DNA from: Escherichia coli 042 | GTDB lineage: Bacteria > Pseudomonadota > Gammaproteobacteria > Enterobacterales > Enterobacteriaceae | Reading direction: 5' to 3' (one strand) | Assembly: GCF_000027125.1 (NCBI RefSeq) | Contig: NC_017626.1 | Length of the DNA stretch: 64,000 bases | Part shown: in pieces, positions 1-3,000 of the stretch | Layout of the letters: each line of letters opens with the position of its first letter | How positions within the stretch are numbered: the stretch's first letter is position 1 | Position numbers: made by a program

Positions 1-3000
1 ACAACGAATAGGTTTTGTACTTACTATGGAATGGATTGCCGATCCGTCTATCTGGGCCGGGTTAATCACGCTGATTGTGATCGAACTGGTCCTCGGCATT
101 GATAACCTGGTCTTTATTGCCATCCTCGCCGAAAAACTACCGCCGAAGCAGCGCGACCGCGCACGGGTTACCGGGCTGCTGCTGGCGATGTTAATGCGCC
201 TGTTACTGCTGGCGTCAATCTCCTGGCTGGTCACCCTGACTCAACCGCTGTTCAGCTTCCGCTCGTTTACCTTTAGCGCCCGCGACTTAATCATGCTGTT
301 TGGTGGTTTCTTCCTGTTGTTCAAAGCCACGATGGAGCTTAACGAACGGCTGGAAGGGAAAGACAGCAATAACCCCACGCAACGCAAAGGTGCGAAGTTC
401 TGGGGGGTGGTGACACAAATTGTGGTACTGGACGCCATCTTCTCACTCGACTCAGTGATTACCGCCGTCGGGATGGTCGACCATTTACTGGTCATGATGG
501 CCGCCGTGGTTATCGCTATCAGCCTGATGTTGATGGCCAGCAAGCCGTTAACCCAGTTCGTTAACAGTCACCCGACCATCGTTATTCTCTGCTTAAGCTT
601 CCTGTTGATGATTGGCTTTAGCCTGGTGGCGGAAGGTTTCGGCTTCGTCATTCCGAAAGGCTACCTGTACGCTGCCATTGGTTTCTCGGTGATGATCGAG
701 GCGCTCAATCAGTTGGCTATCTTTAACCGGCGACGTTTTCTTTCCGCTAACCAGACGCTGCGCCAGCGGACTACCGAAGCGGTAATGCGCCTGCTTAGCG
801 GGCAAAAAGAAGATGCGGAACTGGACGCCGAAACCGCGTCCATGCTGGTGGATCATGGTAACCAGCAGATCTTTAATCCGCAGGAACGGCGGATGATTGA
901 GCGGGTACTTAATCTTAACCAGCGTACTGTCAGCAGCATTATGACGTCGCGCCACGATATTGAGCATATCGATCTCAACGCGCCGGAAGAAGAAATCCGC
1001 CAGTTGCTGGAGCGAAATCAGCATACGCGGCTGGTGGTTACTGATGGCGATGACGCAGAAGATTTGCTCGGTGTTGTTCACGTTATCGACCTGCTACAAC
1101 AGTCTCTGCGCGGCGAACCGCTCAACCTGCGGGTGTTGATTCGCCAGCCGCTGGTGTTCCCGGAAACCTTGCCGTTGTTACCTGCCCTGGAGCAGTTCCG
1201 TAATGCTCGCACACACTTTGCTTTTGTGGTGGATGAGTTTGGTTCAGTGGAAGGGATTGTGACATTAAGTGACGTCACTGAAACCATTGCCGGTAACTTA
1301 CCGAACGAAGTGGAAGAGATCGACGCCCGCCATGATATTCAGAAGAATGCGGACGGTTCCTGGACGGCGAATGGTCATATGCCACTGGAAGATCTGGTGC
1401 AATATGTGCCGCTACCGCTGGATGAGAAACGCGAATATCACACCATTGCCGGGCTGCTGATGGAATATTTGCAGCGTATTCCAAAACCTGGCGAAGAAGT
1501 TCAGGTGGGGGATTATTTGCTTAAAACGTTGCAGGTGGAAAGCCATCGCGTGCAGAAGGTGCAGATTATACCGCTGCGTAAGGATGGCGAGATGGAGTAC
1601 GAGGTGTGATGGTATCGGCCATTTTACCCAATGCTGCGTAACGCCTTATAACTTCAGCAATGAAGCGATGTCTGTGGTACATGGACATCACAGCGGGGGT
1701 GTGGGTCCGGCTGTAAATCGCCGAATCGTTTCCTGTAGGCCGGGGCAGCCCACATGGATGTGGGCTGAGGGCGCGTTTTACAGGGATGTTACCTCGCGCC
1801 CGTACCCGATAGCCGAAAGGAATAAGATGAGGGAACCGCGCCAGCGGCGATTTACCGCCGGGAGCCCGGGTTGCCAGGGTGGTGGCGATTGAGCCACCCT
1901 GGCACGTTCACCGGCTTGAGCGTTCCATAGTAGCGAGGAACATCAAGTGAACGGAACAGCCTTCGATCTTACATATTCAGAATATAATGGTGCCGCCGCT
2001 CGCGATGCTGATGGGATCTATCGCGTCATGTATGTCGCAAAATTTGAAGAAGCGGTTTACGTATTGCATTGTTTTCAAAAGAAAACACAGACTACCAGTC
2101 AATCGGATATTGATTTAGCCAAACGACGCTATAAAGAACTTGTTCAGGAGCGGAAAAATGAAAATTGAAACCTTTGATAGTGTGTGGGATGCGGTGAGTG
2201 ACACCCCTGAACAAGCGGAAAATATGCGGATCCGTGCCGAACTTGTTACGATCATTAATAACTGGATTGAACAACAAGGGTTTAGCCAGGCTCAGGCAGC
2301 GTCTGCTTTAGGGGTCACTCAACCTCGCATATCTGAACTTGCCAGAGGTAAGATCCAGATCTTTAGTATCGATAAATTGATCACCATGATGGCTCATGCA
2401 GGATTGCATATTCAACGTATTGAAGTTCAATATCCACATGCTGCTTAGTACTATAAATACAGATGGCGACAAATTGACGCCGCCATCTGCATAACTTGTC
2501 TTACATCTTCTCCAGCAACTTCTTCACATCTTTGCCATTGCGGGAATCTTTATTCCGCTCGGCCCAGTCATTCAGGCGACGTTTCGCTTCGTCCTGTAAG
2601 TGTTTACGCAGTAACTGATCCACTTGCAGACTGTAATTGAGTTGCTGCCAGTTGCCATAAACCCGCAGCGGTACTGGCGTTTCTTTGAGGAAATCAATCA
2701 GTTTGCTTTCCCCGTTCCAGCCACCCACGACCCGAATATCAAACTGGGTGTCGCAGGTTTGATCTGCCAGATTCAACATACCTTCCCCTGTAAGCGCCAG
2801 CACAGGCGATTGACCTTGCATGTCGTTTAACGTCACGACGCCATCCTTCAACATCAAATCGGTGGTAAAGCGGTCAAGACGCGTCACGTTATCAAAGTTT
2901 TCAGCGGCCTTCACATCACCACCATTACGCTCTACCGCTTGCTGAATCATCTGCTGGAAGTTCATCCCTTCCATGCGCGTGTCGGTCATTTCGACATGTG

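What the first reader, a model, noticed from the sequence alone, without database searches (positions are those of the whole stretch)
1690..1900. Cluster of GC-rich palindromes upstream of the toxin-antitoxin-like pair
The first part of the yegH-asmA gap contains several perfect inverted repeats (gcccacatggatgtgggc around 1749-1766; gggcgcg...cgcgccc around 1773-1801; ccagggtgg...ccaccctgg around 1876-1904). This is unusual for a simple intergenic region and suggests a structured RNA, a degenerate mobile-element end, or REP-like elements marking the edge of the insertion.
Basis: seen in the sequence. Interest (0 to 1): 0.3.

Follow-up and report, generated by a model that had tools for sequence, protein, structure and literature searches.

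The report
TRIP1/RRS structured repeat after yegH
The palindromes are the stems of one copy of a known enterobacterial intergenic repeat (TRIP1, the family that includes the 'replication risk sequences'). It is about 265 bases long, has a conserved fold, and its two hairpin loops look like binding sites for the RNA-binding regulator CsrA, so this is a new locus of a known kind of element, not a new kind of thing.

Summary
The inverted repeats are real, with coordinates 1-4 bases off.

The element is a full-length copy of the TRIP1 repeat family (Rudd 1999; Li 2024). The K-12 members TRIP1a and TRIP1c are the 'replication risk sequences' RRS-lysO and RRS-dusC (Pham 2023, 2024). The yegH-asmA copy belongs to a divergent subfamily and is not one of the five catalogued loci.

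A covariance model built from 28 other copies scores it at 171 bits (E about 1e-41). Across 129 copies from at least 12 enterobacterial genera, 96% of cells pair and 28 of 42 pairs show double changes.

Two features hold family-wide:
- the fold;
- two hairpin loops reading CA-N-GGA-Y-G. Here they are ACAUGGAUGU and ACAGGGAUGU, close to the CsrA SELEX consensus. This is the architecture of Rfam TwoAYGGAY, which matches below threshold at 31.5 bits against a cut-off of 43.

The RRS G-quadruplex motif is absent here, and the sense strand lies on the leading-strand template.

My best reading is a transcribed 3'-UTR RNA module with CsrA-type loops. That is inferred, not shown. The rival is an RRS-like DNA-level effect.

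The neighbouring toxin gene is a truncated remnant, joined 40 nt beyond the element.

The parts
1691..1957 (+). Whole TRIP1/RRS-family repeat (yegH-asmA copy, divergent subfamily)
   Evidence: 79-89% identical to the copies at the TRIP1a, b, c and d loci. The 5' limit at 1691 matches the Enterobacter copies and the segment inverted in L080. Family conservation ends near GTGAACGGAAC.
1703..1868 (+). 5' domain, the TwoAYGGAY-like multi-helix junction
   Evidence: Covariance model R1, built without this copy, scores 171 bits, E about 1e-41. Rfam RF01731 scores 31.5 bits at 1711-1854.
1707..1723 (+). Outer closing helix, 5' strand; pairs with 1845-1861
   Evidence: 17 nt, 94% complementary. CCGGC/GCCGG is replaced by UGGCG/CGCCA in the RRS subfamily.
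1845..1861 (+). Outer closing helix, 3' strand
1746..1767 (+). Hairpin 1: 9-bp stem with the loop motif ACAUGGAUGU (1752-1761)
   Evidence: Stem pairs split CG:57/GC:54 and CG:64/GC:50 across copies. The loop reads C-A-N-G-G-A-Y-G in 89 of about 101 copies collected without regard to the loops, and GGA is kept in every loop except in one copy (L066) that lost a hairpin by deletion.
1769..1801 (+). Hairpin 2: 7-bp outer stem, internal loop, 3-bp inner stem, loop motif ACAGGGAUGU (1780-1789)
   Evidence: UUACAGGGAUGU matches the CsrA SELEX consensus RUACARGGAUGU at 11 of 12 positions.
1836..1847 (+). Small hairpin CCGC-GCCA-GCGG
   Evidence: 99.6% of cells paired, 3 of 4 pairs with double changes.
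1872..1904 (+). 3' hairpin (12-bp stem, loop GGCGAUUGA). It occupies the position of the G-quadruplex motif in RRS copies.
   Evidence: Covariation in helices 12-14. The RRS motif GGGGGTGCAGGGGGCGGCGG is absent, and the G4Hunter maximum for this copy is 1.5, at another place, against about 2.3 in RRS-type copies.
1905..1953 (+). Terminal helix CGUUCAC/GUGAACG (1905-1911 with 1947-1953) around a variable insert
   Evidence: 97.4% of cells paired, 5 of 7 pairs with double changes. CGUUCAC/GUGAACG becomes GCGCUCC/GGAGCGC in the RRS subfamily.
1997..1999 (.). Junction between the TRIP1-bearing allele and the toxin-antitoxin allele (not part of the element)
   Evidence: The window matches the TRIP1+REP allele up to 1997 and the full toxin-antitoxin allele from 1999.

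Best explanation
Identity (about 0.95 sure). Window 1691-1957 (+) is a full-length copy of the TRIP1 intergenic repeat family. The K-12 members TRIP1a and TRIP1c are the RRS elements. This copy belongs to a divergent subfamily at an uncatalogued locus, 81 nt downstream of the yegH stop codon. The palindromes are stems of one conserved multi-helix fold.

Mechanism (inferred; the 0.4 below refers to this part). The selected form is the folded sense strand as RNA. It would be transcribed by read-through from yegH as part of its 3' UTR. The fold displays two GGA-containing loops 28 nt apart, ACAUGGAUGU and ACAGGGAUGU. Those loops would be read by a sequence-specific RNA-binding protein, most likely one CsrA dimer bridging both sites. 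The element would then act as a CsrA decoy or as a CsrA-controlled 3'-UTR module.

Shown: the sequence, the fold, the covariation, the loop conservation, and slow evolution at this locus.
Inferred: transcription, CsrA binding, and any regulatory consequence.

The demonstrated property of the RRS relatives is stalling of lagging-strand synthesis at a G-quadruplex. I expect it to be weak or absent in this copy.
For: Family membership:
- BLAST identity of 79-89% to the copies at the TRIP1a-d loci. Those loci and their offsets from stop codons agree with Li 2024.
- The RRS G4 motif is present in the dusC and lysO copies.
- Model R1, built from 28 other copies, scores this copy at 171 bits.

Fold:
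- 86.9% of cells pair on a MAFFT alignment of 83 copies, and 96.1% on a model-based alignment of 129 copies. Structures slid by 1-3 columns give 33-48%.
- 52 of 86 and 28 of 42 pairs show double changes. None of 500 shuffles reaches the observed value for percentage paired, for either count of changes on both sides, or for the covariation score.

Strand:
- G-U pairs outnumber A-C pairs 247 to 102 on the + strand. One U-G wobble pair is conserved in 66 of 83 copies.

Loops:
- CA-N-GGA-Y-G is present in both loops of 89 of about 101 copies collected without regard to the loops. GGA is kept in every remaining loop.
- The loops are also kept in a very divergent partner subfamily that scores only 33-72 bits with the model, as CCA(U/G)GGAUGG and ACAGGAUGU.
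- The loops match the CsrA SELEX consensus RUACARGGAUGU, in which GGA sits in a hairpin loop.
- Rfam TwoAYGGAY aligns both loops in register, E 0.012 in a 1.3-kb scan.
- That family belongs to Rfam's Csr-Rsm protein binding clan and was proposed to be a CsrA-binding sRNA.
- Weinberg's own Psychromonas seed sequences carry ACAUGGAUGU and ACAGGGACGU.

Transcription context:
- No terminator-like site lies between yegH and the element.
- By crude ORF calls, the upstream gene is co-oriented with the element in 44 loci and opposed in 15.

Selection at this locus:
- The element is 95.1% and 95.9% identical to the copies in a divergent Escherichia lineage and in E. albertii. Third codon positions of yegH and asmA are only 66-80% identical.
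Against: - There is no direct evidence of a transcript or of CsrA binding.
- The gene tables of the K-12 CsrA CLIP-seq study show no signal for dusC or ybjE/lysO. This is a weak negative, because intergenic and multi-copy reads may have been dropped.
- Orientation relative to neighbouring genes is not fixed. The copies at lysO-aqpZ, efeU-putP and tauA-mmuM are antisense to their neighbours. At yegH-asmA itself the element is inverted in one Escherichia lineage.
- No conserved promoter accompanies the element.
- About half of E. coli genomes, K-12 included, have lost the 5' half with both GGA hairpins at this locus. The copy is therefore dispensable.
- The Rfam score is below the curated threshold.
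- For the RRS relatives, a purely DNA-level activity has been reconstituted with purified replisomes.
Confidence: 0.4

Rival explanations
1. DNA-level 'replication risk sequence'. When the duplex is unwound at the fork, one strand of the element folds into a very stable structure that blocks lagging-strand synthesis. [quoted passage not shown]
For: - Two family members, 86-89% identical to this copy over 158-189 nt, trigger gaps in vivo and in vitro. At least one of them is conditionally essential.
- Both strands of this copy fold very stably as ssDNA: -74.6 and -68.7 kcal/mol, z -6.3 and -7.4.
- The 2026 single-molecule study reports that the complementary strand also triggers gaps, at lower frequency.
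- Inverted RRS can replace the native ones for viability.
Against: - The G4 motif at which the polymerases stop is absent here. The G4Hunter maximum is 1.5, at an unrelated position, against about 2.3 in RRS-type copies. Only 15 of 83 copies are G4-bearing RRS-type copies (11 with the exact motif).
- The sense strand lies on the leading-strand template, which is the orientation that gave no RecA or SSB peak in vivo. yegH is on the + strand at 2.138 Mb of K-12 and RRS-dusC is on the - strand at 2.229 Mb, in the same replichore. The window's GC skew is -0.025.
- A structure-only DNA role does not explain the near-invariant CA-N-GGA-Y-G loops or the conserved G-U wobble pairs.
Confidence: 0.25
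2. Selfish or relict repeat. The element spread, or was exchanged, among intergenic 3' regions. The fold and loops were needed for its own propagation or are inherited from a master copy, and this copy does nothing for the cell.
For: - Copy number varies widely. E. coli has a median of 3 per genome (range 1-10), one Klebsiella chromosome has 12, and Enterobacter asburiae, Lelliottia and Silvania have at least 13-17, often at contig ends.
- The element sits in intergenic slots that in other strains hold REP or Box C repeats.
- Partial deletions are frequent: K-12 at yegH-asmA, TRIP1b, and L066.
- The repeats mediate inversions.
Against: - No terminal inverted repeats, target duplications or associated transposase were found.
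- The element is absent from 50,697 phage records. The 28 matching 'plasmid' records are all typed non-mobilizable, and many are chromosome-sized.
- At this locus the element evolves 4-6 times more slowly than synonymous sites between Escherichia species. That implies purifying selection on the resident copy.
Confidence: 0.2
3. Passive 3'-end stabiliser or terminator. Like REP/BIME elements, the stable fold would protect the upstream yegH mRNA from 3' exonucleases or help transcription end between convergent genes, without any specific ligand.
For: - The element lies 38-96 nt after a stop codon at all catalogued loci and 81 nt after yegH here.
- It lies mostly between convergent genes: the downstream gene is convergent in 60 loci and co-oriented in 20.
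- The fold is very stable.
Against: - No U-tract follows any hairpin.
- Sequence-specific loop conservation is not needed for this role.
- The element occurs in both orientations.
Confidence: 0.1

Closest known systems
TRIP1 repeats of E. coli (Rudd 1999; Li et al. 2024, PMC10888264)
   Same: Same family. Length is about 265 nt, G+C about 63%, with a 'double-Y' predicted fold and a position a few dozen bases after a stop codon. Identity to the copies at the TRIP1a, b, c and d loci is 79-89%.
   Different: It is not one of the five catalogued loci (aqpZ-lysO, putP-efeU, dusC-yohG, alx-sstT, copA-ybaP). It belongs to a subfamily (GGTCCGGCUG... / CACGUUCAC) shared with the tauA-mmuM and proX-ygaY copies and with most copies in Citrobacter, Enterobacter, Lelliottia and Silvania.
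RRS, replication risk sequences (Pham et al. 2023, 2024; Kusi-Appauh et al. 2026)
   Same: It is homologous to RRS-lysO and RRS-dusC, which are TRIP1a and TRIP1c. It has the same 5' domain and the same overall fold, and it is extremely stable as a single strand.
   Different: It lacks the G4 motif GGGGGTGCAGGGGGCGGCGG. It has the opposite orientation with respect to replication. It is not symmetric about dif. No gap-formation data exist for it.
[quoted passage not shown]
   Same: Two adjacent hairpins with A-Y/R-GGA-Y loops, joined by a short purine linker, inside a long closing helix. It is multi-copy in the genome. The Psychromonas seed loops ACAUGGAUGU and ACAGGGACGU are the same as here.
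   Different: It scores 31.5 bits, and its paralogs score 30-37, against a gathering score of 43. The junction has extra helices. A 3' domain of about 90 nt has no counterpart in the Rfam model.
CsrB/CsrC-type CsrA-sequestering sRNAs
   Same: GGA motifs presented in hairpin loops. A divergent partner subfamily even carries the CsrB-type heptamer CAGGAUG.
   Different: There are only two sites per element, where CsrB and CsrC carry many more (from general knowledge). There is no dedicated promoter or terminator. The element is dispersed and multi-copy, and binding has not been tested.
REP/BIME, Box C and ERIC intergenic repeats
   Same: It occupies the same intergenic niches after gene 3' ends. 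At several loci REP or Box C replaces it or abuts it.
   Different: It is much longer, with a multi-branched fold, sequence-specific loops and a low copy number in E. coli.

Membership tests
TRIP1 repeat family | Sequence similarity to TRIP1a-e over most of about 146-273 bp | tested here: met
   85.7% over 189 nt to the lysO-aqpZ copy, 88.6% over 158 nt to the dusC copy, 82.8% to a full efeU-putP copy, and 79.3% to the alx-sstT copy. Covariance model from 28 other copies: 171 bits, E about 1e-41.
TRIP1 repeat family | GC-rich (62-65%) with a stable 'double-Y' predicted fold | tested here: met
   G+C 0.63. RNA minimum free energy -129.4 kcal/mol for 267 nt, z -4.4. Two multi-branched domains.
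TRIP1 repeat family | Located at one of the five catalogued chromosomal loci | tested here: not met
   The yegH-asmA gap is not among the loci listed by Li 2024, and that paper mentions neither yegH nor asmA. This is a catalogue gap and not a property of the family.
RRS (replication risk sequence) | G-quadruplex motif GGGGGTGCAGGGGGCGGCGG on the sense strand | tested here: not met
   Absent. The homologous stretch reads GGGTTGCCAGGGTGGTGG. G4Hunter maximum 1.5 against about 2.3 for RRS-type copies.
RRS (replication risk sequence) | [quoted passage not shown] | tested here: not met
   The sense strand is the + strand, in the same replichore as RRS-dusC, whose sense strand is the - strand. Window GC skew on the + strand is -0.025. 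This assumes K-12-like synteny.
RRS (replication risk sequence) | Triggers RecA/SSB-loaded post-replication gaps | not testable with these tools
   Needs ssGap-seq or a single-molecule replication assay.
Rfam RF01731 TwoAYGGAY | Score at or above the curated gathering threshold (43 bits) | tested here: not met
   31.5 bits, E 0.012, at 1711-1854 +. Paralogs score 30.2-36.6 bits. Nothing is reported here at the gathering threshold over the whole window.
Rfam RF01731 TwoAYGGAY | Two terminal loops with AYGGAY inside a long closing P1 helix | tested here: met
   Loop 1 is AUGGAU. Loop 2 is AGGGAU, with a purine at position 2, as in Weinberg's Psychromonas seed sequences. The closing helix 1702-1723/1845-1868 has about 18 pairs.
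Csr/Rsm-binding RNAs | GGA in hairpin loops within an ACA-N-GGA context, at least two sites per CsrA dimer | tested here: met
   ACAUGGAUGU (1752-1761) and ACAGGGAUGU (1780-1789), both in loops, 28 nt apart. SELEX consensus.
Csr/Rsm-binding RNAs | Physical binding of CsrA in vivo or in vitro | tested here: inconclusive
   The CLIP-seq gene tables for K-12 show no entry for dusC or ybjE. Intergenic and multi-copy reads may not be represented.
MITE or mobile-element end | Terminal inverted repeats and target-site duplication; clean filled and empty sites | tested here: not met
   No terminal repeats were found at the ends. Filled and empty alleles differ by replacement of the whole intergenic segment.
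Protein-coding sequence or tRNA/tmRNA | Conserved reading frame, or a tRNA or tmRNA fold | tested here: not met
   The 102-aa ORF 1584-1892 is broken by 1- and 2-nt indels among copies. ARAGORN finds nothing.

The most novel reading that the evidence does not exclude
TRIP1/RRS elements are the enterobacterial branch of the TwoAYGGAY RNA motif. Their ancestral, family-wide function would be to display two CsrA-type GGA loops on a transcribed, folded RNA, acting as dispersed CsrA decoys or CsrA-controlled 3'-UTR modules. The G-quadruplex that makes RRS-lysO and RRS-dusC stall replication would be a later addition confined to one subfamily.

A corollary concerns K-12. Its half copy at yegH-asmA lies inside the insH7-insH8 segment whose amplification rescues strains deleted for both RRS, so it may be part of that rescue.
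Probability: 0.25. Interest if true: 0.7.

Novelty: new member of a known kind. Interest (0 to 1): 0.4.

Why it matters
Taken alone, the finding is an ordinary copy of a repeat known since 1999. What adds value is that three separate bodies of literature turn out to describe one element:
- the TRIP1 repeats, whose function is unknown;
- the RRS elements, which are conditionally essential and act as G4-dependent triggers of replication gaps;
- the orphan Rfam motif TwoAYGGAY, a proposed CsrA binder.

The comparison shows that the G4 is present in only a minority of family members. What is conserved in nearly all copies is a fold with two CsrA-type loops. That bears on how general the RRS mechanism is. 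It also yields a cheap test for TRIP1 and for TwoAYGGAY: CsrA binding to wild-type RNA against loop-mutant RNA.

Finally, the family is larger than catalogued. There are at least three more loci in E. coli, many more copies in other genera, and a divergent partner subfamily arranged head to head.

Tried and rejected
- Coding region. The 102-aa ORF 1584-1892 and the 73-aa ORF starting at GTG 1947 were rejected. Copies differ by 1-2-nt indels, and GTG 1947 is the 3' strand of a conserved helix. RefSeq starts the toxin fragment at 2001 and marks it as missing its N-terminus.
- tRNA or tmRNA: none found.
- Any Rfam family at its curated threshold: none at this site.
- Promoter or intrinsic terminator in or next to the element: none beyond chance.
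- Phage origin: no match in 50,697 phage records.
- Plasmid origin: only 28 'plasmid' records match. All are typed non-mobilizable, and many are chromosome-sized, probably mislabelled chromosomes or fragments.
- Clean insertion with a target duplication: not found at alx-sstT, proX-ygaY or efeU-putP. At efeU-putP, K-12 keeps a copy with an internal deletion, which is TRIP1b.
- Orientation relative to replication, tested across about 74-80 loci by local GC skew. The result was 34 positive and 40 negative. The measure fails on the RRS-type copies themselves (3 positive, 6 negative), so I treat it as uninformative.
- CsrA CLIP-seq supplement: no entry for the neighbouring genes, which is inconclusive.
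- Literature searches for an sRNA at dusC-yohP or lysO-aqpZ found none. The second search led to the TRIP1 paper.
- A second copy in the 64-kb window: none by BLAST or by covariance model.
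Full report
OBSERVATION

- 1746-1755/1758-1767;
- 1769-1775/1795-1801;
- 1872-1882/1894-1904.

Two further helices were missed. One is a 17-nt long-range helix (1707-1723 with 1845-1861) that encloses the first two hairpins. The other is a terminal helix (1905-1911 with 1947-1953).

Single perfect inverted repeats are not rare in this window: 63 pairs with arms of 10 nt or more. The whole stretch, however, folds far better than shuffled sequence. As RNA the + strand has z -4.4 to -4.6. As ssDNA, z is -6.3 for the + strand and -7.4 for the - strand. The decamer ACANGGATGT occurs exactly twice in the 64 kb, in the two hairpin loops, 28 nt apart.

WHAT IT IS

The stretch is one copy of a dispersed repeat. 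Distant BLAST finds it in 5425 of 5426 complete E. coli genomes, with a median of 3 places per genome and up to 10. It is also in Klebsiella and Citrobacter records, and in no phage record.

Other E. coli copies lie in these gaps:
- lysO-aqpZ;
- dusC-yohP;
- efeU-putP;
- alx-sstT;
- proX-ygaY;
- tauA-mmuM.

Apart from a few chance hits in unrelated phyla, they come from these genera of Enterobacteriaceae:
- Escherichia;
- Citrobacter;
- Enterobacter;
- Lelliottia;
- Silvania;
- Trabulsiella;
- Kosakonia;
- Kluyvera;
- Pseudescherichia;
- Pseudocitrobacter.

The scan was cut short, so absence from other genera means nothing.

The literature identifies the family. It is TRIP1 (Rudd 1999; Li et al. 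2024), and the catalogued members correspond to the loci found here as follows:

| TRIP1 member | Locus |
|---|---|
| TRIP1a | aqpZ-lysO |
| TRIP1b | putP-efeU, with a 125-bp internal deletion |
| TRIP1c | downstream of dusC |
| TRIP1d | alx-sstT |
| TRIP1e | copA-ybaP |

The reported offsets from stop codons match the loci I fetched. The K-12 putP-efeU deletion shows up in my own comparison.

[quoted passage not shown]

The yegH-asmA copy appears in neither paper. It is 79-89% identical to the copies at the TRIP1a-d loci and belongs to a different subfamily, shared with tauA-mmuM, proX-ygaY and most copies in other genera. A covariance model was built from 28 copies, none more than 83% identical to this one. 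It finds window 1703-1868 (+) at 171 bits, E about 1e-41, and nothing else in the 64 kb.

STRUCTURE AND CONSERVED FEATURES

| Measure | MAFFT alignment, 83 non-redundant copies | Model-based alignment, 129 distinct copies, 5' domain |
|---|---|---|
| Cells forming a standard pair | 86.9% | 96.1% |
| Same, 3' partner slid 1-3 columns | 35-40% | 33-48% |
| Pairs with changes on both sides | 52 of 86 | 28 of 42 |
| Shuffles reaching those values, the double-change cell count or the covariation score | 0 of 500 | 0 of 500 |

Several stem positions split almost evenly between C-G and G-C. The model-based alignment leans towards the model's structure by construction. The MAFFT result does not have that bias. 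Only the innermost helix of the 3' insert is unsupported (47% paired).

G-U pairs outnumber A-C pairs 247 to 102 on the + strand. One U-G wobble pair is kept in 66 of 83 copies. This points to the + strand as the folding strand, and to RNA more than DNA.

The loops are the most striking feature. My first alignment had been filtered on the loop motif, so I repeated the count without that filter. Of about 101 family members retrieved by a pattern unrelated to the loops, 89 carry CA-N-GGA-Y-G in both loops. The rest differ at one flanking position or by a deletion that fuses the hairpins. GGA is kept in every remaining loop.

The model also uncovered a very divergent partner subfamily, scoring 33-72 bits, which lies head to head about 50 nt from standard copies. 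It still carries CCA(U/G)GGAUGG in loop 1 and ACAGGAUGU in loop 2.

COMPARISON WITH KNOWN RNA FAMILIES

Rfam gives one hit, TwoAYGGAY (RF01731), at 1711-1854 (+). The score is 31.5 bits against a gathering score of 43, E 0.012 for a 1.3-kb scan. Both loops align in register. Paralogs score 30-37 bits. At the gathering threshold nothing is reported here.

Weinberg's description fits: two terminal AYGGAY loops, an often very long closing helix, and occurrence in gamma-proteobacteria. The seed alignment contains multi-copy Psychromonas ingrahamii members with the loops ACAUGGAUGU and ACAGGGACGU.

Rfam places TwoAYGGAY in its Csr-Rsm protein binding clan, and it was proposed to be a CsrA-binding sRNA. 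The CsrA SELEX consensus is RUACARGGAUGU, with ACA and GGA invariant and GGA in a hairpin loop. Loop 2 here, UUACAGGGAUGU, matches 11 of 12 positions. Loop 1, CCACAUGGAUGU, keeps both ACA and GGA.

WHAT DISTINGUISHES THIS COPY FROM THE RRS

Three things set it apart:
- The G4 motif is missing. The homologous stretch is GGGTTGCCAGGGTGGTGG, inside the 3' hairpin. The G4Hunter maximum is 1.5, at an unrelated place, against about 2.3 for RRS-type copies. Only 15 of 83 copies are RRS-type, and 11 of them carry the exact published G4 motif.
- The orientation is opposite. In K-12, yegH is on the + strand at 2,137,902-2,139,485 and RRS-dusC lies on the - strand at about 2.229 Mb, in the same replichore. 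The sense strand of the yegH-asmA element is therefore the leading-strand template. The window's GC skew on the + strand, -0.025, agrees. In vivo, inverted RRS gave no RecA or SSB peak. In vitro, they still gave gaps at lower frequency.
- It is not placed symmetrically about dif.

LOCUS HISTORY

Four alleles of the yegH-asmA gap exist:
- full element plus REP (L004);
- 3' half of the element plus REP, as in K-12 and BL21, where 1625-1802 was deleted between TACCC direct repeats;
- an intact RelE/ParE-type toxin plus HTH antitoxin with no element (L135);
- the window's hybrid, found in 50 of 5426 genomes.

In the hybrid, the element allele runs to 1997 and the toxin-antitoxin allele resumes at 1999. 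That truncates the toxin to a pseudogene at 2001-2168. The antitoxin at 2158-2448 is intact.

The 5' half with both GGA hairpins is present in 1501-1695 genomes, about 28-31%. The 3' half is present in 4336, about 80%.

In one divergent Escherichia lineage the element is inverted in place, between two inverted REPs.

Between E. coli and that lineage, and between E. coli and E. albertii, the element is 95.1% and 95.9% identical. Third codon positions of the flanking genes are 66-80% identical. The resident copy is therefore under constraint where it is intact, although its loss is clearly tolerated.

HOW IT MOST LIKELY WORKS

Shown:
- the element is a member of a conserved, folded, strand-asymmetric family;
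- its loops are constrained in sequence;
- it evolves slowly at this locus.

Inferred: it is transcribed with yegH. No terminator-like site intervenes. Across loci, by crude ORF calls, the upstream gene is co-oriented with the element in 44 cases and opposed in 15. The RNA would then present two CsrA-type sites at a spacing that one CsrA dimer could bridge.

I put this at about 0.4. The DNA-level RRS reading is about 0.25, a selfish or relict repeat about 0.2, and a passive 3'-end stabiliser about 0.1.

These readings do not exclude one another. The stable fold of either DNA strand may impede replication as a physical side effect. The RRS subfamily may have added a G4 to an older RNA module.

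Against the RNA reading:
- there are no transcript or binding data;
- the CLIP-seq gene tables show no signal for dusC or ybjE;
- orientation relative to neighbouring genes varies;
- many lineages have lost the hairpins at this locus.

NOVELTY AND SCORE

The family is known, so the finding is a new member of a known kind: a new locus and a distinct subfamily. As far as the searched library shows, three points are not stated in the TRIP1 or RRS papers I read:
- the equivalence of the TRIP1/RRS 5' domain with TwoAYGGAY;
- the family-wide CsrA-type loops, in contrast to the subfamily-restricted G4;
- the extra loci and the partner subfamily.

Interest is moderate, 0.4.

Noticed in passing
window 2001-2168 and 2158-2448: The 'toxin' of the toxin-antitoxin pair is a fragment missing its N-terminus, and RefSeq marks it as a pseudogene. 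The HTH antitoxin is intact. The window is a hybrid of a TRIP1+REP allele and a full toxin-antitoxin allele, joined at 1997/1999 without microhomology. Only 50 of 5426 complete genomes share this arrangement.
   Followed up: partly
L080 8725-9012 (Escherichia lineage SCPM-O-B-8794), equivalent to window 1691-1978: At the same yegH-asmA locus the element is inverted in place, between two REPs of opposite orientation. It is still 95% identical, while the flanking genes are about 92% identical.
   Followed up: partly
e.g. L084 1959-2123(-) with 2177-2341(+); L116 2003-2167(-) with 2213-2377(+); L106, L092, L094, L096, L089, L072, L070, L069, L026, L027: The covariance model finds a very divergent partner subfamily (33-72 bits) lying head to head about 50 nt from a standard copy. 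It keeps the GGA loops, and loop 2 reads ACAGGAUGU, the CsrB-type CAGGAUG. Several Citrobacter loci (L009, L013, L055, L056, L063, L078) carry two standard copies head to head.
   Followed up: partly
K-12 NC_000913.3 2,139,486-2,139,758 (L136 3487-3759): The K-12 half copy of this element lies inside the insH7-insH8 segment (2,102,912-2,288,976). Pham et al. 2024 found that segment amplified in every survivor of the double RRS deletion. Whether the half copy contributes to the rescue is unknown.
   Followed up: partly
window 1666-1688: A 10-bp hairpin (GAUGUCUGUGG-UAC-AUGGACAUC) lies just upstream of the element. It is not part of the family consensus, but the tauA-mmuM copy shares about 40 nt of this upstream sequence. 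The spacer 1610-1690 is 91% identical in E. albertii.
   Followed up: no
L039, L042, L048 (Enterobacter asburiae) and L002 2760-2830 (tauA-mmuM): In these copies a Box C-like repeat (CCCCTCACCC...CCCTCTCCC...GGGAGAGGG) follows directly on the 3' end of the element, which suggests composite repeat units.
   Followed up: no
window 15958-16106, 16293-16435, 16621-16763: Three tandem Sib RNA genes (Rfam RF00113, 140-150 bits). As far as I recall, K-12 has two at this locus (sibA, sibB).
   Followed up: no
window 30112-30197 (+) and 46541-46637 (-): CyaR/RyeE sRNA (100.7 bits) and a TPP riboswitch (71.8 bits), both ordinary Rfam hits.
   Followed up: no
window 2457-2492: A 12-bp hairpin (ATACAGATGGCG / CGCCATCTGCAT) lies between the antitoxin stop codon and the asmA stop codon. 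It may be a shared 3' end for the convergent genes. The only Rfam hit there is a chance match to a microRNA model.
   Followed up: no
L124 (contig labelled 'MAG: Sporobacter termitidis') and L083 ('MAG: Proteobacteria bacterium'): Short metagenome-bin contigs carry typical enterobacterial TRIP1 copies. The Sporobacter label is probably a binning error.
   Followed up: no
L066 1261-1396: A copy in which a deletion fuses hairpins 1 and 2 into one hairpin with a single GGA loop. Together with TRIP1b and the K-12 yegH-asmA half copy, this shows that internal deletions recur in the family.
   Followed up: no
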